This document shows positions 7,673-36,396 of a stretch of 51,940 nucleotides of DNA, one piece after another. Source of the stretch: Escherichia phage MLP1; sequence record NC_079176. One strand, given 5' to 3'. Position 1 is the stretch's first letter; each line of letters begins with the position of its first letter. Both the position numbers and the translations under genes were made by a program. Under the pieces are notes generated by a model. That model was given only the letters and a program-made list of their open reading frames with translations, did no database searches and was not told the DNA's origin.

Positions 7673-7848
7673 CTCAGAAGTTCCCGGAAATAAAATACTT
7701 CCTGCACCGTCCTGTAATAGAGGACAGTTCTCTCTGTTCTCTTAAAGAACTCTCGGACGGAACCTACTCTATTATGGATTTGTTAACTTTCCACGCAATA
7801 CTTGATTTGCGTAATGAACTAAAACCTAAAGAAGAAGACAATGGCTAA
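7570..7848 (+). CDS. tail assembly chaperone -1 frameshift extension (long form)
   Basis: -1 frame has TGA at 7567-7569 then stays open from the heptamer at 7570-7576 to TAA 7846-7848, overlapping the tape-measure start at 7841. Confidence 0.5.
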   Translation, partial: FFQARARTQRTQTVGGGGSIQNGRAEEFESGNDLTQKFPEIKYFLHRPVIEDSSLCSLKELSDGTYSIMDLLTFHAILDLRNELKPKEEDNG

Positions 7849-10800
7849 GAACTTAAAAGATTTAATGAAGCTATCCGAGGCCGAGCTAATCGGCATGGGT
7901 GCTCAATATGGTCTGTCCTTCAATCCCGGTATGCGCAAACGAGATATGGCTCAGCAACTTGAATCAAGTGCTGCGTCAGGTTGGATGGAAACAAATTCAC
8001 AGCTTTTGGGCGAACCAGATTCCCAAATGTACGAGGAGGAATCCTCTTACGGGACTTCTGATATGATTTCAGATGCAGCACACGTAGCACAGATGATTTC
8101 TGGTGCTGGGCTGACTGAAACATTCCATGCTGCAATGAACGGACCAGGACACCATGTAGAAGCAGTTCACGCATACATGGAACAACTTGGTGTATCCACT
8201 GATGATGTTTGGATGCACATGCCTAAAGCCAACCCCAACAAGTCGGAAGGACATTGGGGAATGCTTAATTCGTACATGCGAGATACTCTTGCAGGTCATC
8301 AAGATATTATGCCTGAACTTGCCGGACATTATACCGGCAATATCATGGATGAATATTCCACAAACCGTGGAGATATTGCCAAGTCGTTTGGTTATCTTGC
8401 CCACATGTATGTTGACCGTGAACAGTACGACAACCCAGACCGCTATGCACGAGATGTTTATCGTGTAGCCAAACGTTTAGAATCAGAATTGCCGCAAAAC
8501 TTCCGAGAAGTTGCTGCCGTATCTGCAATGAATGTAGGAAATAAGTCGGGGCCAAAACTTTCATACATGGATTCATTGCCTCAACTTGGTTCTGAATCTG
8601 TTGTTGGGGATATTCTACATCCTCGACAACCTCTTAACGCATCTGGTCTTCCGATGGGTTCGTTTGGTGGAGGCATTAAGGCTGAATATTCCCTATCTGC
8701 ATCCTTGTCTGGTTCTCCAGGTTGGTCTGATGTAAGCAAGACACTCTACCAAGATGTTTCTGGCGTAGTTAAATCTGCGGCAAAAGTTTATTCTGGTGGT
8801 GCTGAAAGAGGGATGAATGCGTATCGCACTCAATCTTCTGACAGGGATTTGATTCTGGACTCCGCCTCTCGTTATGCAGACATTGCAGACGTTCGTTCTG
8901 GGTACGATAACCTTAAGAAAGATATTGGCGATGACCCTCGTTACTCTGGTTCATCTATTCGTGGCGTTCTTGAGAATGCTCACCAATATAATGAAGCAGA
9001 AGTTTCTCGAACATTTGACCCTGCCGAACGTTTAAGAAATACTGGACCTACTGAACTTAGTACATCCAGTGAGTTTACGGCAAATTTAAATGAACCGACA
9101 AGTTGGAACTCTGCAAGAGATAGAAGAGAGTCTATTGCTATTGCAAATCTCGATAGTGCTAGCGTTGGACAGCATAGTTCGGTTAAGTACCATGATGCGC
9201 TCGAGCAAGGTACGCAGGAGTGGCTTGATTTTCGTAAGCAGTATGATATTACTGGCTCTACTATTGGTGATTATTTGGGCCACAACCCCGCAACCAATAA
9301 TAGCCCAATACATACAATGGGCGAAAAGATTGGCCTCACAGTAAGAAAGGATTCGCCACGAGCGCGTGAGAACTTTGAGCGTGGACATAGATTAGAGGCG
9401 TGGGCGAGGCCCAGGGTAGGTGAACGGTATGGGATTGAGATAACTGAAACTGGTGCAATCACAAACGACAACTACCCTGGCATGATGTACTCGCCGGATG
9501 GGTTAATTGGTGATGATGCTTTGTGGGAACATAAAGCTCCAAATAACTTTAAAGATTTGGAAACAACTCCAAACTACATGGACCAGATGCAACTTGGTAT
9601 GCATTTGAGTGGTCGTAGTCGCACACTGTTTACCCAAACTGTTGGTGAAGAATCTAGAAGTCAGTGGGTTGAAGCCGACCCAACGTGGTTTGAACGTAAC
9701 AAGAACAAGATTGAATCCTCTCAAGCACGTATGAATGCTGGCCGCGAGTTTATGGAAAGCTCCGACCTTGATGGCAAAGACCTTGTTAATGAAACCCGCA
9801 AAGTTATGTCCGGTGATGGGATTTGGGGCTATCAGACTCGTGACCACAGGGAAGGTGAGGGATACACTGCTGGCAAGCGCGGGATGGCTAAATTCAGTGC
9901 CACTGCTGGTACAGCCGATGACCCATTCATAGGCAACCGTACCAGTGCCGGAGTTGGCGAAGCTACAGCCTCTGCCGTAGGCTCTGACAGCACGACTGGC
10001 AATGACCTGATGGCAGTATCTGTCAAGAAAGGTATCCTCGCTGCTCAGGAAGAAAACAAGCTGCGTGGACAAGATGCTGACTTTGGTGGCGATGGTGGTC
10101 GTGGCGGTGGTGGTGGCTTCTGGGATACCTTCGATGCAAGCAGTTACGGCATTGGTGGAGGCGGTTCCGGTGGCGGTGGTCGTGGTGGTTGGAATGTTGG
10201 TGGCAGCTTCTCAGATGACTTCGGTCGTGCTGGTGGTGCATTGGCTGCTGGCGTAGCTGGTGGCAGCATAGGCTCACTATCCAATGGTGCAATGAATGCC
10301 CTCATGATGACCCCGTGGGGACGTGTGGCGGGTATGGCTATCGGTGCTACCCAGATTGGTAACGAGGCGCTCGAAGGTCTGAACGATTTCTACGGAAACT
10401 CTTTAGACGCTGGTGTCAATAACCCTAATGAATATTCTTCCATGTCACAGGGCTTGGAGATGTTAGGGCTTAATCAGCAACAAGCTGGCCGACTCAATCG
10501 AACCACACATAGTGCCTATAACACCCTCCTGAATGGCGACCCTAGCGGCGCTGTCAACATCGTTCAGGGAACCCGTGGTCTTATCACCATTGGCGACATT
10601 CGTGCGGCACAGGGCGACCCTGTAGCCTTAGCGCGGGTAATGCGTGAACGTGGTCAGGAGCGGGGCTGGAGTCAGGCTCGCATCGCTGGTGCTATGGAGA
10701 TGGCAGGACTGGATGGCATGGCTCGCGCCTATGACCGTACAGATTACAGCGTGAACGAGGCTCAGGAGAACGTAAGCCGTGGTGCCAACTCACAGTATGC

Positions 10801-11536
10801 CGATGGTATTGCACAGCTAGGAATAGCGCAGACGGAGCGTGCTGGGGTGCTGCCAGGATACGCAGTCCCGCAAGCTGCAATATCCTACGGGAGTTCATTT
10901 ATCGAAGCAGGTGGAGATGCGGCCAGAGTAGCGCGTACAGCGTCAAATGGTTTAGCTGATACTACCAGAACGGTATATGACTTTATCGCAGGAGAAGAGT
11001 CAGGAAACCGCGATTTGAACGCAGATGGTTCGGTGGTTACATCTCCGACTGGTGCCAAAGGTCGTATGCAGGTTCTTGATTCAACTTCCCGTGACCCAGG
11101 ATTCGGCGTTAAACCTGCCCGTGATAACTCACTGGAAGAGCGTGCTCGCGTTGGTCGTGACTACTATGATGCAATGCTCAAGCGTTACAATGGTGACGCT
11201 GAGAAGGCTATGGCGGCGTATACGGATGGTGCTGGAACTGTTGATGATGCTATCAACAATCACGGAACTGACTGGCTCAATGCTGTTCCTCTACAGGCAC
11301 AGAACCGCGTCAAGAAGTACCGCGAATGGGCTTCTCAAGGTGATTCTATTGCAGAAGGTGCAACTGGCTTCACCAGAAACGGACTGTCCTACGGGCAGAC
11401 ACAGGCCACTGTGGTTAACGTTGAAGTCAAAGCTACCGTAAACAATAAGCAAGCGTCTGCAACCGTGTCAACTCCGAACGGTCAAACTGTTACCCAAACA
11501 ATCAACATGGGTAATGGTGCAATGGAACGTAGATAA
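7841..11536 (+). CDS. tape-measure-like virion protein with internal lambda-exonuclease/YqaJ-like domain, Gly-rich segment and C-terminal lytic transglycosylase domain
   Basis: 1231 aa, between chaperone and baseplate genes. Near aa 450-580: EQGTQEW..R..YDITGS, SPDGL..D..WEHKAP, YMDQMQLGM (compare lambda Exo EQGDDAW..ITAS, SPDGL..LELKCP, YMAQVQYSM). aa 745-790 GGDGGRGGGGG repeats. aa 1050-1130: AGEESG, GAKGRMQV, AAYTDGAG (transglycosylase-like). Confidence 0.6.
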   Translation: MAKNLKDLMKLSEAELIGMGAQYGLSFNPGMRKRDMAQQLESSAASGWMETNSQLLGEPDSQMYEEESSYGTSDMISDAAHVAQMISGAGLTETFHAAMNGPGHHVEAVHAYMEQLGVSTDDVWMHMPKANPNKSEGHWGMLNSYMRDTLAGHQDIMPELAGHYTGNIMDEYSTNRGDIAKSFGYLAHMYVDREQYDNPDRYARDVYRVAKRLESELPQNFREVAAVSAMNVGNKSGPKLSYMDSLPQLGSESVVGDILHPRQPLNASGLPMGSFGGGIKAEYSLSASLSGSPGWSDVSKTLYQDVSGVVKSAAKVYSGGAERGMNAYRTQSSDRDLILDSASRYADIADVRSGYDNLKKDIGDDPRYSGSSIRGVLENAHQYNEAEVSRTFDPAERLRNTGPTELSTSSEFTANLNEPTSWNSARDRRESIAIANLDSASVGQHSSVKYHDALEQGTQEWLDFRKQYDITGSTIGDYLGHNPATNNSPIHTMGEKIGLTVRKDSPRARENFERGHRLEAWARPRVGERYGIEITETGAITNDNYPGMMYSPDGLIGDDALWEHKAPNNFKDLETTPNYMDQMQLGMHLSGRSRTLFTQTVGEESRSQWVEADPTWFERNKNKIESSQARMNAGREFMESSDLDGKDLVNETRKVMSGDGIWGYQTRDHREGEGYTAGKRGMAKFSATAGTADDPFIGNRTSAGVGEATASAVGSDSTTGNDLMAVSVKKGILAAQEENKLRGQDADFGGDGGRGGGGGFWDTFDASSYGIGGGGSGGGGRGGWNVGGSFSDDFGRAGGALAAGVAGGSIGSLSNGAMNALMMTPWGRVAGMAIGATQIGNEALEGLNDFYGNSLDAGVNNPNEYSSMSQGLEMLGLNQQQAGRLNRTTHSAYNTLLNGDPSGAVNIVQGTRGLITIGDIRAAQGDPVALARVMRERGQERGWSQARIAGAMEMAGLDGMARAYDRTDYSVNEAQENVSRGANSQYADGIAQLGIAQTERAGVLPGYAVPQAAISYGSSFIEAGGDAARVARTASNGLADTTRTVYDFIAGEESGNRDLNADGSVVTSPTGAKGRMQVLDSTSRDPGFGVKPARDNSLEERARVGRDYYDAMLKRYNGDAEKAMAAYTDGAGTVDDAINNHGTDWLNAVPLQAQNRVKKYREWASQGDSIAEGATGFTRNGLSYGQTQATVVNVEVKATVNNKQASATVSTPNGQTVTQTINMGNGAMERR

Positions 11537-22263: not shown

Positions 22264-23382
22264 ATGGCTTACACTACCTTTTCACAAACCAAGAATAACC
22301 AACTATTAGAACCAATGTTCTTTGGTCAGAACGTCAACGTTGCTCGCTATGACCAACAGAAGTATGGCATATTCGAGAAGTTGATTGAGAAACAATTGTC
22401 ATTCTTCTGGCGACCGGAAGAGGTAGATGTTTCACAGGACCGTATTGATTATCAGAAGCTCCCACCAAATGAGCAGCACATTTTCACCAGTAATTTGCGC
22501 TATCAAATCCTTCTGGACTCCATTCAGGGACGTGGACCTAACACAGTTTTGCTACCAATCGTTAGCATTCCTGAGCTAGAAACTTGGATTGAAACTTGGT
22601 CTTTCTCTGAGACTATCCATTCACGTTCTTACACCCACATCATTCGTAATATTGTTACAGACCCAAGCATTATCTTTGATGAAATCGTAACTAACGAACA
22701 CATCAAAGCACGAGCAATTGGCATCTCCCAATATTATGACGAACTTCAACAACTCACTGCATTATGGCAGTTGTTCGGAGAAGGGAACCATGCTGGTCAT
22801 GAAATTAGTCTGCGAGAGTTGAAGAAGAAGCTCTATCTGTGCCTCATGTCCATCAATGCACTGGAAGCAATTCGATTCTATGTCAGCTTTGCTTGCTCAT
22901 TTGCCTTCGCTGAACGTAAGCTAATGGAAGGAAATGCCAAGATTATTCGACTGATTGCACGAGATGAAGCACTACATTTGACCGGAACTCAGCACATGTT
23001 GAATATTCTGGCGAGTGGTAAAGATGACCCAGAAATGGGCGAAATTGCTCAAGAATGTCGTGAAGAATGCCAGAAATTGTTCGAAGATGCTGCTCAACAG
23101 GAGAAAGATTGGGCTGATTATCTGTTCAAAGATGGCTCCATGATTGGCTTAAACAAGCAAATTCTGTGCGGATATGTGGAATATATTACGAATATTCGTA
23201 TGCAAGCGGTTGGATTAGATGCTCCATTCAAAGGTGCAACTAACCCGATTCCATGGATTAACGCATGGTTGAATTCGGATGCTGTACAGGTTGCTCCACA
23301 GGAAACGGAGATTAGTTCATACCTGGTCGGGCAAATTGACTCCGAAGTTGATACCAATGCGCTCAGTGGATTCGAGTTGTAA
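22264..23382 (+). CDS. nrdB: ribonucleotide reductase class Ia small (beta) subunit
   Basis: Near-colinear with E. coli NrdB from [11 protein letters not shown] to the C-terminal R1-binding tail; radical Tyr context RSYTHII and iron ligands ([16 protein letters not shown]) present. Confidence 0.9.
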
Positions 23383-23440
23383 CGATTAAATGGGAGAAGA
23401 GATTCGATGCGTTAGCGTCGTTTCTCTTTGAGCTAGAATA

Positions 23441-23468
23441 AAATAAGTAAGTTTTCAATATTACTTAT
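23441..23468 (+). other. perfect 9-bp-stem hairpin (AATAAGTAA/TTACTTATT)
   Basis: Read directly; 10-nt loop; lies in the gap between nrdB and the RNAP gene. Confidence 0.3.
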
Positions 23469-23537
23469 TCCCAATATTGCTACAATATTTAAAGTAGTAT
23501 TAGGAATGCGTAAAGTTCAAAACCAAGTGGTACATGG

Positions 23538-23591
23538 TCGGTCAACTGTATCTGGACATGGATTCGTTCACAATCGGTCAGCTGTATCTAG
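23538..23591 (+). repeat. direct repeat pair TCGGTCARCTGTATCTRG, spacing 36 bp
   Basis: Copies at 23538-23555 and 23574-23591; palindrome TGTTCGAACA at 23600-23609. Confidence 0.5.
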
Positions 23592-23678
23592 CCGGAATTT
23601 GTTCGAACAGTGGTCCGGCTATGTTATAAAAATTTTTATATAATTTTTTTTTTAATTTTAAATATTGTTACGGAATTA

Positions 23679-23730
23679 ATGAGACTCGAATTGTTTCAAT
23701 ATTAACGAGACTCAATCTGTGACAATATTA
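23679..23730 (+). repeat. tandem imperfect 26-bp direct repeat (about 20/26 identical)
   Basis: atgagactcgaattgtttcaatatta / acgagactcaatctgtgacaatatta, back to back. Confidence 0.5.
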
Positions 23731-23899
23731 TAATTTTATTTTTGGGCCAGCGGGGAGGGGGAAGTTGTGACATTATTATTTTAAAATTTTTATCTCCGAG
23801 GAGGGGAAGCCCAACGTCCTATCGGACTTAAATACGGTCCCTACCCCCAACTTTTTCCTGTAGCCTATCGGCTTTCAAACAACACCAAGTTAGGTAGTG

Positions 23900-23921
23900 G
23901 GTCAAGGTCAAGGTCAAAGTC
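23900..23921 (+). repeat. (GGTCAA)x3 tandem hexamer
   Basis: ggtcaaggtcaaggtcaaagtc read directly. Confidence 0.5.
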
Positions 23922-23955
23922 TCCGTGCTGTGCTAACAATGGCACAGGTTTGTGA

Positions 23956-23972
23956 TATTAGTTGGACGTGAA
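23956..23972 (+). promoter_or_regulatory. copy of recurrent 17-bp motif (tATTAGTTGGAcGTGAA), candidate phage promoter
   Basis: Member of an 8-copy family with consensus CATTAGTTGGATGTGAA, all in + orientation; 67 bp upstream of RNAP start. Confidence 0.4.
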
Positions 23973-24038
23973 TTGTGTAATGGCTACGCTATTATAATCC
24001 GTTTCATTCAAATCATACACAATCTTGGAGACTTACAA

Positions 24039-25979
24039 ATGACTACTATCACTACTCAAACTATCAAATCTGTTGTTCCTGCTATCACTGCTCTGGTATA
24101 CCGTGCCAAAGAGAAGCAGAACTACATGGTTCCACAGACTTGTGCTATTGCTGCCTTAGCCATATTCAAGATGATGACGTCTTTCACGCGTGATGACGTT
24201 ATTCCTGCTATCTCGATGGTTGAACTGGCTTCTGCTTCCATTGCTGATGCCAACCGTTACAACAACGACTTAAAGTCAATGCACTATGTTGACCCAGCTA
24301 TCAACCTCATTGGTTTGGCTAAACACTTCGGTTTCATCACCATGAACGAAGACAAATCGTTCCAGATGACTGATGCGTGGGTTGAACTGGTTACAACCAA
24401 AGATACCTCAGTTCCATTCACTGAGCGGGTAACAACTGAATCTCGTCGTAAGCCTTTCGTTAAGGGTGGCAAAGTTAAGCCATCCAAGACTCTGAAAGCT
24501 GCAATCGAATTCCTGCAAGATACTGAATATCACGTTGATGCAACAATGGTTAAGGTTATCTCTTCCATGTTAGAACAACGTACATTTGGTGGCTTACAGA
24601 TGCCAGAAGCAATCCAGACTGAACTCCATGTTTGGAACAATGCTGTAGCAATGGTTGGTCAGGACACTCTGTTCTCTGACTACTTTGCTGATAACCGTGG
24701 TCGTTTATATCACGTAGCATGTGCTGGTCCTAACCCACAATCATCTGACTTTGCTCGTTGCCTGTATTCCCACAATGTTGAGAACACTGTGAGCAAGTTT
24801 AATGCTGATGGTTCAACAACTCTGGCATACAACATGTTCATGCTTGAGCTGGAAGATATTGCTGGTGGAGACTGGACTTCTGCAAAACGTTTAACTTATG
24901 TTGCACAGAATCCTGCTGGTTCTTTGGCTCGTATGCTGAACATGCCTAAAGGTGAGCGTCCTTCCAAGCCATTCACTTATGTTCGTCTGGCTCTGGATTG
25001 GTTCAAGTTTGAGACTACAGGTGAGTGTGATTCTCGTGTAGGCTTTGGCTTAGATGCTAAATGTTCTGGTACTCAATACTTGGCATTCATTGCTGGTAAC
25101 ATGGAGATGGCTCGTGCAACAGGTCTGGTTGATTCTGAGACTAAAGCATCTGACCCATACCAGTTATCTCTTCGTGAACTGTTGAAGTTATTAGACCGTT
25201 CTTCAATGAAACCATCCGCTGAAATTATGGATGAATTCTTGAATCCGAAAGCTGGTCGTAAGTTTATCAAGACTCCATACATGGCTATTCAATATGGTGG
25301 TGGTAAAGCAGCATTAACTGGTTCTTCTGACTTCATTGCATACATGACAGAAGCTCTCCAGATTCCTATGGAGAAAGCTGATGCATTTGCTGAACTGTGT
25401 GTTGAAGCAATTCATAACGCATTGGGTGCTAAGATTAACATGTTCATTGAGAAAGCTGCTGATGCTGCATACAACCGTTGTGTTGAACTCAACAAAGAGT
25501 ACATCACATATAAGCACACTGATGGTCAAGTTGTAATGAAGCCTTGCTTCCCATCTCGTGATGTTTGTGATGCATTCAGCATTCGTGTTGACTCTCAAAC
25601 TCGTGTCATCTTTGGTCAGATTCAGGAAGAGAAACCTTGGACCATTCGTGAGTCCAATCCGACTAAAGAAGAATTCAAACGTACCTTCGTTGTTAACTAC
25701 ATTCAAGGTATTGACGCATTGGTTGCTCGTACTGTTGCAGTCAAAGCTAAAGAAGCTGGTCTTCGTGGCTTTACTTCAATTCACGACTGTTTCCGTTGCT
25801 GCTTAGCTGATGCTCCACTCATGATGGAAGTAATTCGTTCTGCTTATATTGAAATCTTTGTTAATAATAATCAGTTTGAATCTCTATCTAAGCAACTTGG
25901 TGGCATCAACATGTACCATGAGAACATCGTAACAGAAGAGCTTCTGATGAGCGAACACGCTTACTACTTCTGTCAATAA
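24039..25979 (+). CDS. single-subunit T7-type DNA-dependent RNA polymerase, compact form
   Basis: DAKCSGTQY (T7 motif A DGSCSGIQHF), RKFIKTPYMAIQYGGG (motif B), FTSIHDCF (motif C, T7 IHDSFG); ATG 24039 has GGAG ribosome-binding site; ORF track's upstream start at 23952 has none. Confidence 0.85.
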   Translation: MTTITTQTIKSVVPAITALVYRAKEKQNYMVPQTCAIAALAIFKMMTSFTRDDVIPAISMVELASASIADANRYNNDLKSMHYVDPAINLIGLAKHFGFITMNEDKSFQMTDAWVELVTTKDTSVPFTERVTTESRRKPFVKGGKVKPSKTLKAAIEFLQDTEYHVDATMVKVISSMLEQRTFGGLQMPEAIQTELHVWNNAVAMVGQDTLFSDYFADNRGRLYHVACAGPNPQSSDFARCLYSHNVENTVSKFNADGSTTLAYNMFMLELEDIAGGDWTSAKRLTYVAQNPAGSLARMLNMPKGERPSKPFTYVRLALDWFKFETTGECDSRVGFGLDAKCSGTQYLAFIAGNMEMARATGLVDSETKASDPYQLSLRELLKLLDRSSMKPSAEIMDEFLNPKAGRKFIKTPYMAIQYGGGKAALTGSSDFIAYMTEALQIPMEKADAFAELCVEAIHNALGAKINMFIEKAADAAYNRCVELNKEYITYKHTDGQVVMKPCFPSRDVCDAFSIRVDSQTRVIFGQIQEEKPWTIRESNPTKEEFKRTFVVNYIQGIDALVARTVAVKAKEAGLRGFTSIHDCFRCCLADAPLMMEVIRSAYIEIFVNNNQFESLSKQLGGINMYHENIVTEELLMSEHAYYFCQ

Positions 25980-26020
25980 CATTAATTGGTCAAGGATGAC
26001 CACAAACTTGGAGACTTAAA

Positions 26021-26119: not shown

Positions 26120-26227
26120 AGACTTCTTAGAATTGTTGTCAGAATATAAACAAGAGTCGCATGTATTATTGCACGCATTCTTGCATAATTCTGGATATTT
26201 CGATACAGAGATACCGTTCTGATATTT

Positions 26228-26250
26228 GGGAGCTTCGGCTCCCTTTTCTT
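26228..26250 (+). terminator. intrinsic terminator (GGGAGC-UUCG-GCUCCC then UUUUCUU)
   Basis: Perfect 6-bp GC stem, UUCG tetraloop, T-run; read directly. Confidence 0.55.
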
Positions 26251-26275
26251 GTTTCAACTAGTCTTAAGGTTGTAG

Positions 26276-26292
26276 CATTAGTTGCATGTGAA
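26276..26292 (+). promoter_or_regulatory. 17-bp motif copy CATTAGTTGcATGTGAA
   Basis: 24 bp upstream of ATG 26316. Confidence 0.4.
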
Positions 26293-26315
26293 TAACAAAC
26301 AATTTGGAGAATATC

Positions 26316-26480
26316 ATGTTCACAGTTCATTATCAAATAGTCGGCAAGTTTGAGAATTACGAAGAGTGCAATACATTAGCTGAAGCTCGTGCATTTGCTG
26401 CATCTTTAAAAGATACGGTATATGTTGATATTGTAGATGGTGATAAAGAGTATCCACTTGTAGCACCTGCATTACACTGA
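26316..26480 (+). CDS. small hypothetical protein (54 aa)
   Basis: GGAG ribosome-binding site 7 nt upstream; preceded by motif copy. Confidence 0.4.
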   Translation: MFTVHYQIVGKFENYEECNTLAEARAFAASLKDTVYVDIVDGDKEYPLVAPALH

Positions 26481-26531
26481 TTCCCAATATTCGAGCAATA
26501 TTACTGCATGTAGTATTGCTCCGATATTCGA

Positions 26532-26548
26532 CATTAGTTGGATGTGAA
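26532..26548 (+). promoter_or_regulatory. 17-bp motif copy CATTAGTTGGATGTGAA (consensus)
   Basis: Exact consensus. Confidence 0.4.
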
Positions 26549-27412
26549 GTAACAGAATACGGAGAAGTATTCCGCATGTCATGTTGAAATCATTCTAGAA
26601 ACATTTCAGCATGTCAACTAAACACACAGTGTTGTAATGATGTGGCAATCATTGAACTCCCTGTCTTTGGCCAGACAAAGTTCCAGCAACCATGTGTGAA
26701 GTAGGAATATTATTCGAAACTGTTCTTCAACCCAAGCATGTTCACTTGTTTCCAATTGAGCTTCATCTCCTATTATCAAGGCCCACCCACAAGCCGGGAG
26801 ATAACTTTGGCAAGACTGGAACTTTTGGACATGCTTCTTTCTTTCAATCAGAATTCGAAAGAAGAGAAGAGGTCGGACAATATGGCAACAGAGCATCGAG
26901 ATTAGTCTCGTAGCCGCCCCGATTTTGAGCAACAAATATTGTGGCAATATTGTCATAGTATGGCATGTAAATATTGCTACAAATTAGCATGTTAGAATGT
27001 GGCAGAATTGTTAGAGGACTAATCACCTCGAAGATACAATTGTCTACCAATCCGGCATGTTAATTTTGTAACAGTATTTGTGCCAATTTCGCATGTAATA
27101 AATGTATCAATATTCACCCAATATTCTTGCAACCCGCATGAATACTGGCTTCCAGCCAAGCGAAGGCTTTATCATCGCATGTAAATATTGTGACAATATT
27201 GGGATAAAACCCTTTATTTATTTCTGTAGTTTTTGTATTAAATGGTCGGTTTTCCGTACCTGTTGCGCCACTTCTTGATGTGCCAAATACATTCAAGGTG
27301 GGAGTAAACCTGTAATTAATGATGCATGTTTGATTGTGACTAAATTCGTCTATTTGGCAGATGAATTGGTTGCAATTAAGCATGTCCATTTATCATTAGT
27401 TGCATGTGAATA

Positions 27413-27429
27413 AGACCAAATCTCTGTAA
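27413..27429 (+). promoter_or_regulatory. 17-bp motif copy CATTAGTTGcATGTGAA
   Basis: Read directly. Confidence 0.4.
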
Positions 27430-27698
27430 ATTCTGCTGAAATTGTGTGACAGATTTTAGAGAGATTATGTCTCCAAGCTAATCATTGTAGTTTTCGGCAC
27501 TTAATGTGTCACATATATAGCCTGTGAAAAACGTGTGGTTTATTGCTGGATTGCAACGCGCCCACCAGACTAGGAAGTCCATGATGGCGGCACACACAGG
27601 AATACTATATAACTCCCTGATTCTTTAAGGTGGATTAAGGTAATACAAGACCTCCACAATCGTTATGACGGGAGTTTTCTTTTAACTTAGGAGAATAA

Positions 27699-27950
27699 AT
27701 GGATACCATCAACAAACGTGCAAAATTTGCTGACCTGTCAGAAGGTCAAATCTTCACTTACAATTCTATCAAATGTATTAAGGTGGAAGGTGAGTGTGGT
27801 TTATACAACACTGTAAGATTTCATGACTCAAGCCGTGCATGTAAACTTAAAGACAGTGATGTTGTTGAAATTGAAATCGAATTAGAGCCAGATGGTTCAA
27901 ATGATGAAATCATTCTGCGTAAAACTGTTGGATACACTAAAGGATTCTGA
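27699..27950 (+). CDS. hypothetical early protein
   Basis: Strong ribosome-binding site TTAGGAGAATAAATG. Confidence 0.45.
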   Translation: MDTINKRAKFADLSEGQIFTYNSIKCIKVEGECGLYNTVRFHDSSRACKLKDSDVVEIEIELEPDGSNDEIILRKTVGYTKGF

Positions 27951-27951
27951 A

Positions 27952-28194
27952 ATGAATTATGCACTATATCAATATATCAATCGTGATGGTGTTGTTTCTC
28001 ATGCTTTGGTTAATACTAAAACCAGAGCAATAATGTTGGCAGACTTAATGTCTGGTGCATCAATTTACGAAAACAAGCTGGTGTGGAAGAATGCAGCGTA
28101 TCCTGAATACGTTTGGCAAGCAATCCAGAATGACAAACATCACAAAGTTGTGGCAACTGCCGCACATCCAGATTTCCTGAAAGTAAGAGGTTAA
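27952..28194 (+). CDS. hypothetical early protein
   Basis: ATG immediately after upstream stop; track start 27892 overlaps upstream gene. Confidence 0.4.
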   Translation: MNYALYQYINRDGVVSHALVNTKTRAIMLADLMSGASIYENKLVWKNAAYPEYVWQAIQNDKHHKVVATAAHPDFLKVRG

Positions 28195-28195
28195 C

Positions 28196-28384
28196 ATGGA
28201 CTTCATCGTCTACTTTAAGTTAAATGGTGTAGAGCAAAGTTTGTACTTCAATTCTTTACTTCGTTTGCAACAGTGGGCGGAGAAGTTTGTTGGTTATGAC
28301 TTTGATTACATCAACGCATGTACACCTGATGAACATGAGGAAATTGTGTTCAGTTCATTAAATCAGATTCTGGAGGCAAAATGA
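28196..28384 (+). CDS. hypothetical early protein
   Basis: 62-aa ORF, tight packing. Confidence 0.4.
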   Translation: MDFIVYFKLNGVEQSLYFNSLLRLQQWAEKFVGYDFDYINACTPDEHEEIVFSSLNQILEAK

Positions 28385-28554
28385 ACGACCAGCAATTCAA
28401 CACATTAATGCAGCAGATTAATCATCAAGAACTGATGAATGCCATCGAAGGCAAGAAGCCCGTCGAACGTAAATATCGTAAAATTGATAATTATATGCCA
28501 ACAATCATTGCATGTGTTGGTGTTGCCCTTGTTCTCTACTTCCTGGTGAAATAA
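28381..28554 (+). CDS. small membrane protein (57 aa, C-terminal transmembrane helix)
   Basis: ATGA overlap with upstream stop; IIACVGVALVLYFLV hydrophobic tail; below the ORF-track length cutoff. Confidence 0.35.
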   Translation: MNDQQFNTLMQQINHQELMNAIEGKKPVERKYRKIDNYMPTIIACVGVALVLYFLVK

Positions 28555-35721: not shown

Positions 35722-36396
35722 ATGTCTTATCATGATGATGACAAAGAGATTGCACTATCAACGTGCAAGCAATGGCTCAATGATAATGATGCCGTCTATC
35801 TTGCCAAGGAAGATGTTATCATTATGTGGGTCCATTTTAATCCAGAATCGAAGCGCGGTGAGTGGCAACGTTACAAGATGAAAGAGGCTTGTCGCATAAT
35901 TAAAGCCACACGCGCTGGCTTCTCTGCTATGAAATATATCAAGCCAGAGATGCTGATGCTTGCTGCACAGGAAGAAGAACGTGCATATAAGCAAGCTGTT
36001 AAATCCCGTTCAACTGTTCCTCCAGAGTTCTTTAATTTGGAGCGCGCTGGTCACTTCAACAATTTAGAAATGTTGACACTGTGCCTGTTGCAAGAATTAG
36101 TTGGAAGAGGACAAAACATTGAAGCTGTTTGCCTTGGGGAACTCATGAAAGAGTTGTTCTTGACAAAGGGCTTTGCTGTACCAAACCGAACTTTACGCTG
36201 GAAATTGTTGCGAGCAGTCGCGCAAGAAGCTGGTGTAGTTGTTCGTGACAGAACCAACCGACTTACCATTACGGGAGTTGGGCGTTTTGTAGCAATCCAG
36301 ATTGAGGGTTATGACGAATCAATCATCACTGAACTCACTGTCGCTGAGACAAAGGATTTGGTAATCAAAACAATCGAACGATTCAATATGTATTGA
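35722..36396 (+). CDS. hypothetical protein (224 aa)
   Basis: ATG directly after upstream stop; track start 35665 overlaps upstream gene. Confidence 0.4.
   Translation: MSYHDDDKEIALSTCKQWLNDNDAVYLAKEDVIIMWVHFNPESKRGEWQRYKMKEACRIIKATRAGFSAMKYIKPEMLMLAAQEEERAYKQAVKSRSTVPPEFFNLERAGHFNNLEMLTLCLLQELVGRGQNIEAVCLGELMKELFLTKGFAVPNRTLRWKLLRAVAQEAGVVVRDRTNRLTITGVGRFVAIQIEGYDESIITELTVAETKDLVIKTIERFNMY

What the first reader, a model, noticed from the sequence alone, without database searches (positions are those of the whole stretch)
23383..24038. Repeat-rich, AT-rich 650-bp gap upstream of the RNAP gene
Contains a perfect 9-bp hairpin, two 18-bp direct repeats 36 bp apart, a tandem 26-bp repeat, a T10 run, (GGTCAA)x3, a duplicated CCTATCGG element and a TATAAT hexamer at 23993-23998. 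This looks like an early control region, a packaging site or an origin.
Basis: seen in the sequence. Interest (0 to 1): 0.45.

Follow-up and report, generated by a model that had tools for sequence, protein, structure and literature searches.

The report
Chasevirus genome-end and RNAP leader region
This 656-bp gap is the conserved non-coding region where the linear genome of phiEcoM-GJ1-like (Chaseviridae) phages has its left end, just upstream of the phage RNA polymerase gene; it is a real cis-acting region of a kind already known for this family.

Summary
The window is a Carltongylesvirus (Chaseviridae), about 95% identical to Yersinia phage PYps23T. The gap lies between nrdB, the last late gene, and the single-subunit RNA polymerase (ATG at 24039).

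In five relatives from four genera (4HA13, Mangalitsa, JL1, PM1, Y2), the left boundary of the 2.6-3.2 kb direct terminal repeat maps to CCTAT|CG|GAC|TTAAATACGGTCCC. That corresponds to window 23823-23828, inside the first CCTATCGG element. A matching TCGGAC at 26873-26878 marks the predicted right boundary, giving a repeat of about 3.05 kb. PYps23T's published ends instead map 140 bp further in, within a phage-promoter-like 16-mer at 23957-23972. I could not resolve this conflict.

The whole gap is conserved as DNA across genera:
- an nrdB terminator hairpin;
- an AATATTG-N3-CAATATT palindrome;
- GGTCGGTCAACTGTA repeats;
- the most AT-rich 120 bp of the genome;
- 26-bp GAGACT units whose copy number varies from 2 to 4.

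The 45-codon ORF is not protein-constrained. Rfam gave no match and the core shows no thermodynamic structure.

Packaging-end function is supported by homology. Early-promoter function rests on motifs only. Origin function is untested.

The parts
23396..23429 (+). Terminator-like hairpin directly after the nrdB stop codon (AGAGA..CGATGC-GTTA-GCGTCG..TCTCT), followed by a weak T-tract (TTTGAG)
   Evidence: RNA fold -18.9 kcal/mol, z = -4.7, 0 of 200 shuffles fold as well. Found by the terminator scan. Invariant in the 9 Carltongylesvirus genomes whose aligned sequence reaches this far.
23441..23470 (.). AT-rich 9-bp perfect hairpin (AATAAGTAA / TTACTTATT)
   Evidence: z = -3.9. Relatives carry a different but still self-complementary AT-rich sequence here. 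Function unknown.
23473..23489 (.). Operator-like palindrome AATATTG-CTA-CAATATT
   Evidence: The arms are conserved while the central 3 nt vary, in Carltongylesvirus, 4HA13, PM1, Faunus, Y2 and a metagenomic relative. The same architecture recurs at 26935-26952 and 27184-27201, just beyond the predicted right repeat boundary.
23506..23643 (+). 45-codon ORF, annotated 'hypothetical protein' in some relatives. Judged not to be a protein-coding gene.
   Evidence: A 1-nt deletion after codon 4 in 5 of 13 relatives shifts the frame while the DNA stays conserved. The window peptide MRKVQNQVVHGRS... and the flopper peptide MRKVKTKWYMVGQ... are unrelated. TH24 and BSBP01 lack exactly one 36-nt repeat period. 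No PHROG match. The AGGA lies only 1 nt from the ATG.
23536..23589 (+). Two copies of the GGTCGGTCAACTGTA-type element, 36 bp apart
   Evidence: One or two copies of (G)TCGGTCAACTGT are conserved in every genus examined: 4HA13, PM1, Faunus, Y2 and mg21. Copy number varies from 1 to 3 within the genus.
23624..23743 (.). Most AT-rich 120 bp of the genome (83% AT), including the T10 run at 23644-23653
   Evidence: The T-run is conserved in all 13 genomes and in other genera.
23664..23730 (+). Tandem 26-bp units (ATTGTTnCAATATTAAYGAGACTCRA) with GAGACT cores at 23681 and 23707. The last unit overlaps a sigma70-like pair: -35 TTAACG at 23702-23707 and -10 TATTAT at 23726-23731.
   Evidence: TRF. 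Copy number is 2 to 4 among 13 genomes with an invariant TTAATGAGACT core. GAGAYTC/GATTCGA repeats sit at the same place in the Erwinia phages Y2, Faunus and mg26. The promoter pair is predicted in 8-10 of 13 genomes and annotated as a putative host promoter in phiEcoM-GJ1.
23751..23796 (+). 46-nt lineage-specific tandem duplication of the segment just upstream of the terminus core
   Evidence: Present only in the window, EcoM1 and Bp10. Repeat families D3 and D13 have 46-48 nt spacing.
23797..23875 (+). Terminus core:
- GA-rich tract, 23797-23809;
- mini-palindrome 1, GTCC-TATC-GGAC, 23816-23827;
- predicted left physical end, 23823-23828;
- invariant ATACGGTCCCT, 23832-23842;
- T-tract;
- mini-palindrome 2, AGCC-TATC-GGCT, 23862-23873.
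   Evidence: Left repeat boundaries of 4HA13 and Mangalitsa (PhageTerm annotations) and of JL1, PM1 and Y2 (both repeat copies present in the record) all fall within CCTAT|CG|GAC|TT. Another IMG/VR genome record also starts there. This is the best-conserved non-coding DNA across genera. The palindrome arms change in a compensatory way: TCCC/GGGA in PM1 and Faunus, and a 7-bp stem in L090. The fifth pair of palindrome 2 is A:T, T:A, G:C or C:G in different lineages.
23900..23921 (+). (GGTCAA)x3 array. The conserved part is GTCAAGGTCAA(A/C).
   Evidence: TRF. Two units are conserved in the genus and GTCAA(G/C)GTCAAC is conserved in 4HA13, PM1, Y2 and mg24. The third unit is specific to the window.
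23928..23947 (+). 8-bp hairpin CTGTGCTAACAATGGCACAG, just upstream of the promoter-like motif
   Evidence: Terminator scan. Fold -11.1 kcal/mol, z = -1.7. The Mangalitsa/JL1/Bp10/2KOFFS clade has a different sequence that still forms a hairpin (AGCAC...GTGCT).
23957..23972 (+). Copy of the phage-promoter-like 16-mer ATTAGTTGGACGTGAA. PYps23T's published left genome end maps to 23966|23967, inside it.
   Evidence: 11 matches with up to 3 mismatches, all on the + strand, against 1.1 expected. About 9 are convincing, and all lie between 23957 and 36428. The motif is identical to phiEcoM-GJ1's annotated 'putative phage promoter 1'. The PYps23T repeat boundaries lie in two copies of it at the same phase.
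23982..24006 (+). Conserved leader block GGCTACGC-N7-ATCCGTTTCA. The TATAAT hexamer (23993-23998) lies in its variable middle.
   Evidence: GGCTACGC and ATCCGTTTCA are near-invariant across genera. The middle 7 nt vary (TATTATA, AAGTCTA, CAACTTA, TAACTAA), so the TATAAT is not conserved. The block is unique in the window.
24026..24041 (+). Ribosome-binding site TGGAGA and the RNAP start codon (ATG 24039-24041)
   Evidence: The same TTGGAGACTTA context precedes the next gene at 26008.
26840..26878 (+). Predicted right boundary of the terminal repeat, outside the finding's coordinates: an 8-bp hairpin CTTCTTTC...GAAAGAAG, a GA-rich tract, and TCGGAC at 26873-26878
   Evidence: Homologous to the right boundaries recorded for JL1 and Mangalitsa. 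4HA13 and PM1 have theirs at the same relative position, about 40 nt upstream of the shared CCCGA(A/T)TTGAGC anchor. The block ending in TCGGA(G/C) is invariant in 14 Carltongylesvirus genomes and is followed by about 35 hypervariable nt.

Best explanation
**What it is.** The gap is the concatemer-junction and left-terminal region of a chasevirus genome. In replicating, head-to-tail DNA, the late operon ends at the nrdB terminator hairpin (23396-23429). The following 400 bp is conserved non-coding DNA with repeated protein-binding-type elements:
- the AATATTG-N3-CAATATT palindrome;
- GGTCGGTCAACTGTA repeats;
- an 83% AT tract;
- 26-bp GAGACT units.

These lead up to a roughly 80-bp core. There the packaging nuclease makes the cut that creates the left physical end, at or beside TCGGAC of the first CC-TATC-GG mini-palindrome (window 23823-23828).

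**The terminal repeat.** A second TCGGA site with a similar context (hairpin, then a GA-rich tract) at 26873-26878 marks the right boundary. The virion DNA would therefore carry a direct terminal repeat of about 3.05 kb that contains the RNA polymerase gene.

**The leader.** The last 211 bp (23828-24038) form the first sequence of the packaged genome and the leader of the RNAP gene. They contain:
- the second mini-palindrome;
- a GTCAAGGTCAA element;
- a hairpin;
- one copy of the phage-promoter-like 16-mer, which would let the phage polymerase boost its own gene;
- a conserved GGCTACGC...ATCCGTTTCA block;
- the ribosome-binding site.

**Shown.** The homology, the conservation, the position of relatives' recorded ends, and the absence of coding or RNA-family signal.

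**Inferred.**
- That this phage is cut at the same place as its relatives.
- That the upstream repeats are the recognition site for the terminase.
- That the sigma70-like pair at 23702-23731 drives the RNAP copy in the right-hand repeat.
For: **Identity and synteny.** The window is 95% identical to PYps23T and 86-96% to other Carltongylesvirus genomes across nrdB-gap-RNAP.

**Family property.** The literature describes Chaseviridae genomes as linear, terminally redundant and non-permuted, with long terminal repeats of about 3 kbp (PMC12842549). Reported repeat lengths are 3234 bp in Mangalitsa by PhageTerm (PMC6753284) and 3120 bp in 4HA13 (PMC9699118).

**Mapped left ends in relatives.**
- 4HA13 and Mangalitsa...CCTATCGGAC|TTAAA(A)TACGG.
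- JL1: ...CCTAT|CGGAC.
- PM1: ...CCTATCG|GGAG.
- Y2...CCTGTCG|GAC.
- All map to window 23823-23828.

**Right boundaries.** They are homologous among relatives and carry (T/C)CGGA. This is invariant in 14 genomes of the genus, with TCGGAC present in the window at 26873.

**Conservation of the core.** It is the best-conserved non-coding DNA across Escherichia, Erwinia, Pectobacterium and Aeromonas chaseviruses. The mini-palindrome arms show compensatory changes.

**Not a gene and not a structured RNA.**
- The ORF frame is not conserved.
- No PHROG match.
- No Rfam match above noise.
- No tRNA.
- The core's folding energy equals that of shuffles, z = 0.09.
Against: **No data from this phage.** No reads or virion DNA are available, so its ends are inferred only by homology.

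**The closest relative disagrees.** PYps23T has published ends at a different place: 23966|23967 and 26542|26543 in window coordinates, giving a 2339-bp repeat. These came from ligation-PCR and restriction mapping (PMC8762354). My in-silico digests do not settle the matter:
- The reported NdeI fragment of about 4.8 kb fits the published model (4814) better than the TCGGAC model (5149).
- The reported MbiI band of about 1.3 kb lies between the two predictions (1107 and 1442).

**Independence of the five determinations is imperfect.**
- 4HA13 was re-aligned to Mangalitsa before PhageTerm was run.
- The method used for JL1 is unknown.

**Some reports deny fixed ends.** phiEcoM-GJ1 was described as circularly permuted (cited). 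PhageTerm called the chasevirus Fifi44 'headful'.

**The hexamer alone is not specific.** TCGGAC occurs 13 times in the window against about 15 expected.

**No convincing host promoter downstream of 23828.** None was found there. How the left-hand RNAP copy would be transcribed by the host enzyme is therefore unexplained.
Confidence: 0.68

Rival explanations
1. The genome ends lie at the phage-promoter-like 16-mers, as published for PYps23T. The left end would be at 23966|23967 (ATTAGTTGGA|CGTGAA) and the right end at 26542|26543 (ATTAGTTGGA|TGTGAA). The repeat in this window would then be about 2.58 kb, and end formation would be tied to promoter recognition. The CCTATCGG core would serve some other role.
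For: - The PYps23T record carries an exact 2339-bp repeat whose two boundaries lie at the same phase of two copies of the 16-mer.
- The paper reports ligation-PCR sequencing and restriction evidence.
- The NdeI right-end fragment predicted by this model (4814 bp) matches the reported ~4.8 kb.
- Both motif copies are present in the window.
Against: - Five other chaseviruses, including two of the same genus (Mangalitsa, JL1), have ends at the TCGGAC site. In those genomes the 16-mer lies inside the repeat.
- A junction falling exactly inside a shared 16-mer is also what PCR template switching between the two copies would produce. This is my inference.
- The reported MbiI ~1.3 kb band does not match this model's 1107-bp right-end fragment.
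Confidence: 0.14
2. The AT-rich, repeat-bearing part (about 23470-23745) is an origin of replication. Under this reading the repeated GAGACT units, the GGTCGGTCAACTGTA repeats and the CAATATTG palindromes bind an initiator. The 83% AT tract melts, and the strand-biased GGTC motifs act as T7-type primase sites. This does not exclude the terminus role of the core.
For: - It contains the most AT-rich 120 bp of the genome.
- It contains tandem units whose copy number varies while the core stays invariant.
- GGTC occurs 8 times on the + strand and not at all on the - strand, the densest 656-bp stretch in the window. GGGTC and TGGTC are T7 gp4 primase recognition sequences (my own knowledge). The PYps23T relative's record annotates a helicase/primase.
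Against: - No initiator protein is known in the family.
- A T7-type origin needs a phage promoter upstream of the AT-rich tract. The only motif copy in the gap lies 215 bp downstream of it.
- Cumulative GC skew rises monotonically through the gap with no inflection.
- The GGTC excess is largely explained by the two repeat families themselves.
Confidence: 0.22
3. The gap is mainly an array of host sigma70 early promoters, analogous to T7 A1-A3, that transcribe the RNAP gene. The 26-bp units would be overlapping promoters, each supplying a -35 whose matching -10 lies in the next unit. This does not exclude the terminus role.
For: - TTAACG/TTGACG-N18-TATTAT is predicted in 8-10 of 13 genomes, scoring 9-10 of 12.
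- It is annotated as a putative host promoter in phiEcoM-GJ1.
- The RNAP gene must be read by the host enzyme first.
- The unit upstream gives TTAATG-N18-TATTAA.
Against: - The region holds fewer sigma70-like hits than shuffled sequence: 2 against a mean of 3.1.
- The -10 is weakened to TATTAA in flopper, 2KOFFS and JL1.
- These sites lie upstream of the mapped left end. They are therefore absent from the left-hand RNAP copy in virion DNA and could serve only the right-hand copy or concatemers.
- In Y2 and mg26 the repeats are GATTCGA-type and have no promoter-like spacing.
Confidence: 0.3
4. The phage packages by a headful mechanism from a pac site, giving circularly permuted genomes. The gap would then be at most a pac site, with no fixed ends.
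For: - phiEcoM-GJ1 was originally suggested to be circularly permuted, and the terminase clusters with T1-like headful enzymes (as summarised in PMC8762354).
- PhageTerm called Fifi44 headful.
Against: - Fixed ends and long repeats have been reported independently for Y2, PM1, PYps23T, Mangalitsa and 4HA13.
- The ICTV profile accepts fixed ends and long repeats as a property of the family.
Confidence: 0.06

Closest known systems
Long direct terminal repeats of Chaseviridae, as annotated in Escherichia phages Mangalitsa (MN045229) and vB_EcoM_4HA13 (MN136198) and present in the records of Erwinia phage Y2, Pectobacterium phage PM1 and Escherichia phage JL1
   Same: - The same gene order: lysis genes (and nrdB where present), the gap, then RNAP.
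- The same sequence at the left boundary (CCTATCGGAC|TTAAATACGGTCCC).
- A homologous right boundary about 3 kb downstream.
- The RNAP gene lies inside the repeat.
   Different: - The window is an assembly with the repeat collapsed, so its ends are not observed.
- It carries a 46-nt duplication just upstream of the core and a third GGTCAA unit.
- None of the papers I could read describes the cis elements at the boundaries.
Yersinia phage PYps23T terminal repeat (2339 bp; Hammerl et al. 2022, PMC8762354)
   Same: It is the closest sequenced relative (95%), and its ends also fall inside the homologous gap.
   Different: Its published ends lie in two copies of the promoter-like 16-mer, 140 bp to the right of the site used by the other five phages. 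This gives a shorter repeat.
Bacteriophage T7 concatemer junction: terminal repeat flanked by the SRL/SRR short-repeat arrays, with phage promoters phiOL/phiOR near the ends and hairpin-primed duplication of the repeat (Dunn and Studier 1983; Chung, Nardone and Hinkle 1990; from my own knowledge, not checked here)
   Same: - T7-like RNAP and replication genes.
- Arrays of short repeats adjoining the repeat boundary.
- A phage-promoter-like motif about 130 bp inside the left end.
- Small inverted repeats at the cut sites.
   Different: - The repeat is about 3 kb rather than 160 bp and contains the RNAP gene.
- The virion is a myovirus.
- The terminase is described as T1-like.
- There is no sequence similarity to the T7 junction.
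- No experiments exist on the processing mechanism.
Short conserved 'bracket' sequences at the boundaries of long terminal repeats in staphylococcal Twort-like (Kayvirus) phages (Lobocka et al. 2012; from my own knowledge, not checked here)
   Same: A short sequence is shared by both boundaries of a kilobase-scale terminal repeat. Here that sequence is TCGGA(C/G), preceded by a GA-rich tract and a hairpin.
   Different: - The phage family and the sequence are unrelated.
- The shared element here is only 5-6 nt.
- Its role is inferred from the position of recorded ends only.

Membership tests
Chaseviridae terminal-repeat left boundary (concatemer junction) | The genome is a chasevirus with the nrdB/lysis-gap-RNAP arrangement | tested here: met
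   86-96% nucleotide identity to Carltongylesvirus records, with the same flanking genes.
Chaseviridae terminal-repeat left boundary (concatemer junction) | The sequence is homologous to the position of mapped or annotated left ends in relatives | tested here: met
   Five relatives in four genera end within CCTAT|CG|GAC|TT, equivalent to window 23823-23828. PYps23T differs, at 23966/67.
Chaseviridae terminal-repeat left boundary (concatemer junction) | A homologous right boundary lies 2.6-3.2 kb downstream | tested here: met
   GAAAGAAGAGAAGAGGTCGGAC ends at 26878, 3051 bp from 23828. The block is invariant in 14 genomes of the genus.
Chaseviridae terminal-repeat left boundary (concatemer junction) | A physical DNA end and a twofold read coverage step at this position in this phage | not testable with these tools
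   No reads or virion DNA are available. The window is a collapsed assembly.
Bacterial sigma70 promoter | -35 and -10 hexamers with 16-18 bp spacing, conserved in relatives | tested here: inconclusive
   - TTAACG-N18-TATTAT at 23702-23731 scores 9 of 12 and is present in 8-10 of 13 genomes.
- Hits in the region are no more frequent than in shuffles.
- The TATAAT at 23993 has no -35 and is not conserved across lineages.
Bacterial sigma70 promoter | A transcription start site | not testable with these tools
   No RNA data.
T7-type single-subunit RNAP promoter | A 16-20 nt conserved sequence repeated in one orientation upstream of genes | tested here: met
   ATTAGTTGGAYGTGAA has 11 matches on the + strand against 1.1 expected. 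About nine are good copies, most lying between ORFs of the early and middle region. It equals the phiEcoM-GJ1 'putative phage promoter'.
T7-type single-subunit RNAP promoter | Initiation by the phage RNAP at the motif | not testable with these tools
   The ICTV profile states that chasevirus promoters have not been identified experimentally.
Iteron or T7-type replication origin | Repeated binding sites next to an AT-rich unwinding tract | tested here: met
   26-bp tandem units, 36-bp-spaced repeats and an 83% AT tract. This shows the form only.
Iteron or T7-type replication origin | A phage promoter immediately upstream of the AT-rich tract (T7 primary-origin layout) | tested here: not met
   No copy of the 16-mer, allowing up to 3 mismatches, lies between 23383 and 23956.
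Intrinsic terminator (after nrdB) | A stable GC-rich hairpin followed by a U-tract | tested here: inconclusive
   The hairpin is strong (-18.9 kcal/mol, z = -4.7). The tail is UUUCUCUUUGAG if the inner stem alone is taken, but only UUUGAG after the full stem.
Structured non-coding RNA | A match to a known family, or folding better than shuffles with covariation | tested here: not met
   - Rfam best E-value is 3.5 and all hits are far below the gathering thresholds.
- The core 23790-23880 folds at z = 0.09 as RNA and -0.74 as DNA.
- Only the two 4-7 bp mini-palindromes show compensatory change.
Protein-coding gene (ORF 23506-23643) | Reading frame and peptide conserved among relatives | tested here: not met
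   A frame-shifting 1-nt indel in 5 of 13 genomes gives unrelated peptides from conserved DNA. No PHROG match.

The most novel reading that the evidence does not exclude
Both boundaries of the roughly 3-kb terminal repeat carry the same undescribed signal: an inverted repeat, a GA-rich tract, and TCGGA(C/G) at the cut. The CC-TATC-GG mini-hairpins, the upstream GAGACT units and the AATATTG-N3-CAATATT palindromes that flank both boundaries would form the recognition apparatus. If so, chaseviruses would offer a sequence-defined and genetically tractable model for how long terminal repeats are measured and duplicated. A more exotic variant is that the PYps23T mapping is also correct. Ends could then form at phage-promoter motifs, linking transcription initiation to end formation.
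Probability: 0.25. Interest if true: 0.5.

Novelty: new member of a known kind. Interest (0 to 1): 0.3.

Why it matters
**Practical value.** It tells annotators where this genome should be opened, at about 23828, and that about 3.05 kb including the RNAP gene is probably present twice in the virion. It also shows that the small 'hypothetical protein' called in this gap in several GenBank records is probably not a gene.

**Scientific value.** The comparison exposes a conflict in the literature about where Carltongylesvirus genomes end (TCGGAC site versus promoter-like 16-mer). It also lists conserved cis elements at both repeat boundaries that I did not find described in the chasevirus papers I could read. 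How long terminal repeats are cut and duplicated is poorly understood for any phage, so these elements are reasonable targets for experiments. The finding itself, however, is an instance of a known feature of a known family.

Tried and rejected
1. **Structured RNA.** Rfam in permissive mode returned only noise. ARAGORN found no tRNA or tmRNA. The conserved core folds no better than shuffles as RNA or DNA. Rejected.

2. **Small protein gene at 23506-23643.** Rejected on frame non-conservation and the absence of any family match.

3. **Resolving the PYps23T conflict by in-silico MbiI and NdeI digests of the whole PYps23T genome under both end models.** The published approximate band sizes do not discriminate cleanly. 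NdeI favours the published ends and MbiI is ambiguous.

4. **Looking for further terminus-anchored records by BLAST of the core.** No additional annotated ends were found. SKA49 and TH53 start 88 nt upstream of the aligned segment (about 120 nt upstream of the predicted cut), probably an arbitrary start.

5. **A degenerate pattern scan of IMG/VR for the core.** It was too permissive, giving 120 or more mostly chance hits. After filtering it yielded only three new divergent instances: L039, L090/L107 and L111.

6. **A conserved sigma70 promoter between the predicted left end and the RNAP ATG.** None was convincing.

7. **GC-skew inflection as a sign of an origin.** None was seen.

8. **Source papers.** The original phiEcoM-GJ1 and Y2 papers are not in the held library. 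Their end-mapping methods are therefore known to me only second-hand.
Full report
**Context**

The window is a complete or nearly complete chasevirus genome with all long ORFs on the + strand. The stretch 22800-25000 is 95% identical to Yersinia phage PYps23T. It is 86-96% identical to other members of the genus Carltongylesvirus (Chaseviridae, Cleopatravirinae), the phiEcoM-GJ1 group. The gap 23383-24038 separates nrdB (22264-23382), the last gene of the late/lysis block, from the single-subunit RNA polymerase gene. The RNAP start codon is the ATG at 24039, not the upstream GTG that the ORF list gives. The GenBank record of phiEcoM-GJ1 was opened at the base equivalent to 23383. The gap has therefore long served as 'the beginning of the genome' by convention.

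**Check of the observation**

The gap is exceptional within the genome:
- It contains the most AT-rich 120 bp, 83% AT at 23624-23743.
- It has the highest density of + strand GGTC, 8 copies with none on the other strand.
- It holds 5 of the 17 + strand CAATATT heptamers. Six more cluster around 26485-27195.

**Where the genome ends**

The literature describes Chaseviridae genomes as linear, non-permuted and terminally redundant, with repeats of about 3 kb (PMC12842549).

I compared the recorded repeat boundaries of every relative for which they could be recovered. Mangalitsa (PhageTerm, 3234 bp) and 4HA13 (PhageTerm, 3120 bp) both begin at ...CCTATCGGAC|TTAAA(A)TACGGTCCC. Three records contain both copies of the repeat, so the boundaries can be read off directly:

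| Phage | Repeat length | Left boundary |
|---|---|---|
| JL1 | 2995 bp | CCTAT\|CGGAC |
| PM1 | 2665 bp | CCTATCG\|GGAG |
| Y2 | 2608 bp | CCTGTCG\|GAC |

A further IMG/VR genome record starts at the homologous CGGGAG.

The right boundaries are also homologous to one another. In the window the corresponding sequence is GAAAGAAGAGAAGAGGTCGGAC, ending at 26878. The block that ends in TCGGA(G/C) is invariant in 14 genomes of the genus and is followed by about 35 hypervariable bases. Both boundaries thus share TCGGA(C/G), preceded by a purine-rich tract and an inverted repeat. The predicted repeat in this phage is about 3051 bp and includes the RNAP gene.

**The conflicting report**

PYps23T is the closest relative. 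It was reported to have a 2339-bp repeat on the basis of ligation-PCR and restriction digests (PMC8762354). In its record the two boundaries are ...ATTAGTTGGA|CGTGAA and ...ATTAGTTGGA|TGTGAA. These are the same phase of two copies of a 16-mer, equivalent to window 23966|23967 and 26542|26543.

That 16-mer is the 'putative phage promoter' annotated in phiEcoM-GJ1. It occurs 11 times in the window, always on the + strand, against 1.1 expected. About nine copies are convincing, and all lie between 23957 and 36428.

I rebuilt the PYps23T genome and digested it in silico under both models:

| Enzyme | Published model | TCGGAC model | Reported in the paper |
|---|---|---|---|
| MbiI | new 4105 and 1107; 1372 shifts to 1232 | new 4105 and 1442 | about 4 kb and about 1.3 kb |
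| NdeI | new 4814 | new 5149 | about 4.8 kb |

NdeI favours the published ends and MbiI is ambiguous. A junction that lies exactly inside a shared 16-mer is also what PCR template switching would give; that is my inference and is untested. I weight the five concordant phages more heavily, but the question is open. Either way, the left end lies inside the gap.

**Conservation and anatomy**

An alignment of 13 Carltongylesvirus gaps and comparisons with 4HA13, PM1, Y2, Faunus and metagenomic relatives show conserved non-coding DNA throughout the gap. From left to right:

1. **nrdB terminator-like hairpin** (-18.9 kcal/mol, z = -4.7).
2. **AT-rich hairpin.**
3. **Palindrome AATATTG-N3-CAATATT.** Its arms are conserved across genera while the middle varies. 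It recurs twice just beyond the right repeat boundary.
4. **GGTCGGTCAACTGTA.** One to three copies per genome, present in all genera.
5. **T-run and AT-rich tract.**
6. **26-bp units** with an invariant TTAAYGAGACT core. There are 2-4 copies in the genus, and GAGATTC/GATTCGA repeats sit at the same place in Erwinia phages.
7. **TTGTGNCAATATT, TTTTATTTTT and GGGCC**, then the terminus core.
8. **The leader**, after the cut. It contains the second mini-palindrome, GTCAAGGTCAA, and a hairpin that is kept with a different sequence in the Mangalitsa clade. These are followed by the 16-mer, the block GGCTACGC-N7-ATCCGTTTCA and the ribosome-binding site.

**The mini-palindromes**

They have the form NNCC-TATC-GGNN, with an invariant centre and arms that change in a compensatory way:
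- GTCC/GGAC becomes (C)TCCC/GGGA(G) in PM1 and Faunus.
- One metagenomic relative has a 7-bp stem.
- The fifth pair of the second palindrome is A:T, T:A, G:C or C:G in different lineages, though it is mismatched in many genomes.

This argues that self-complementarity matters, but the stems are too short to register thermodynamically.

**What it is not**

The 45-codon ORF (23506-23643) is annotated as a hypothetical protein in some relatives, but it is not under protein constraint. Five of 13 genomes have a 1-nt deletion after codon 4. The 'orthologous' peptides are therefore unrelated (MRKVQNQVVHGRS... versus MRKVKTKWYMVGQ...) while the DNA stays conserved. Two genomes lack exactly one 36-nt repeat period. 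There is no PHROG match. Rfam and ARAGORN find nothing.

**Promoters**

The best host-type candidate is TTAACG-N18-TATTAT at 23702-23731. It is the one annotated in phiEcoM-GJ1, where the -35 is TTGACG. It is predicted in 8-10 of 13 genomes. It lies upstream of the mapped left end. In virion DNA it can therefore serve only the right-hand copy of the RNAP gene, or concatemers.

Downstream of 23828 I found no convincing conserved sigma70 promoter. How the host enzyme first reaches the RNAP gene therefore remains unexplained. One possibility is that the right end enters the cell first, but nothing here tests this.

**Mechanism proposed**

The core (23797-23875) is the site where the packaging nuclease creates the left end. 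The matching TCGGA site at 26873-26878 gives the right end. The upstream repeated elements are the likeliest recognition sites for the terminase, by analogy with the short-repeat arrays next to the T7 terminal repeat (my own knowledge).

- **Shown here:** the homology, the positions of relatives' recorded ends, the conservation, and the exclusion of coding and known-RNA explanations.
- **Inferred:** cleavage at this site in this phage, the role of the repeated units, and promoter function.
- **Non-exclusive alternatives:** an origin function for the AT-rich, repeat-bearing part, and an early-promoter array. I could not test either.

**Novelty**

Terminal repeats of chaseviruses, and the approximate position of the left end upstream of the RNAP gene, are already in the literature and in GenBank annotations. 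This window is a further member.

In the chasevirus papers I could read, I found no description of:
- the conserved core and its twin mini-palindromes;
- the TCGGA signal shared by both boundaries;
- the flanking AATATTG-N3-CAATATT palindromes;
- the disagreement between PYps23T and the other phages.

I could not read the original phiEcoM-GJ1 and Y2 papers. Interest is modest.

Noticed in passing
window 23957, 26277, 26533, 27395, 30160, 34320, 34464, 36428 (and weaker copies at 36096, 44025, 50730): A phage-promoter-like motif (A/C)CATTAGTTG(G/C)ATGTGAA occurs only on the + strand and only in the early/middle region (23.9-36.4 kb). No good copy precedes the structural or late genes. The ICTV profile says chasevirus promoters are still unidentified, so this set is a ready candidate for testing.
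   Followed up: partly
window 23473-23489, 26935-26952, 27184-27201: Three copies of a 17-18 bp operator-like palindrome, AATATTG-N3-CAATATT(G). One lies about 350 bp before the predicted left repeat boundary. The other two lie 57 and 306 bp after the predicted right boundary. The arms are conserved across genera while the central 3 nt vary, as expected of a binding site for a dimeric protein.
   Followed up: partly
window 26159-28510: GCATGT occurs 16 times on the + strand in this 2.4-kb early region, out of 24 in the whole 52 kb. It often appears as GCATGT(A/T)A(A/T)T(A/T)TTGT(G)AC, between very small ORFs. This looks like a second repeated regulatory motif of the early region.
   Followed up: no
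window 26879-26917 and homologous positions in 14 relatives: Immediately after the invariant block that ends in TCGGA(G/C) lies a hypervariable segment of about 35 nt with at least three unrelated sequence versions. It is followed by the conserved CCCCGATTTTGAGCAACAAATATTGTGACAATATTG. The switch from conserved to variable sequence coincides with the predicted right end of the terminal repeat.
   Followed up: partly
loci of Mangalitsa (L007 211-384), 2KOFFS, Bp10 and JL1, relative to window 24031-24039: One clade of the genus has a 174-nt insertion between the leader and the RNAP ATG. It is annotated as an N-terminal extension of RNAP (MTNEEYRALAADGARLKEEGQGW...). It ends with a second TTGGAGACT ribosome-binding site and ATG, so it may be a separate small gene.
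   Followed up: no
GenBank PP952070.1 (hits H3, H36, H94): 'Staphylococcus phage Pel53', listed with host Staphylococcus hyicus, is 94% identical to this Escherichia/Yersinia chasevirus across nrdB-gap-RNAP. The host assignment looks doubtful, perhaps a contaminant or a labelling error.
   Followed up: no
PMC11984208 (Fifi44) compared with PMC6753284, PMC9699118 and PMC8762354: Published packaging calls for this one family disagree: circularly permuted (phiEcoM-GJ1), headful (Fifi44) and long terminal repeats (Y2, PM1, PYps23T, Mangalitsa). The 4HA13 paper describes its genome as both 'circularly permutated' and carrying a 3120-bp terminal repeat.
   Followed up: partly
window 10084-10116: A TGG/GGT trinucleotide array (11 copies) lies inside the long 7841-11536 ORF, in the only 1-kb stretch of the window above 50% GC (54.9%).
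   Followed up: no
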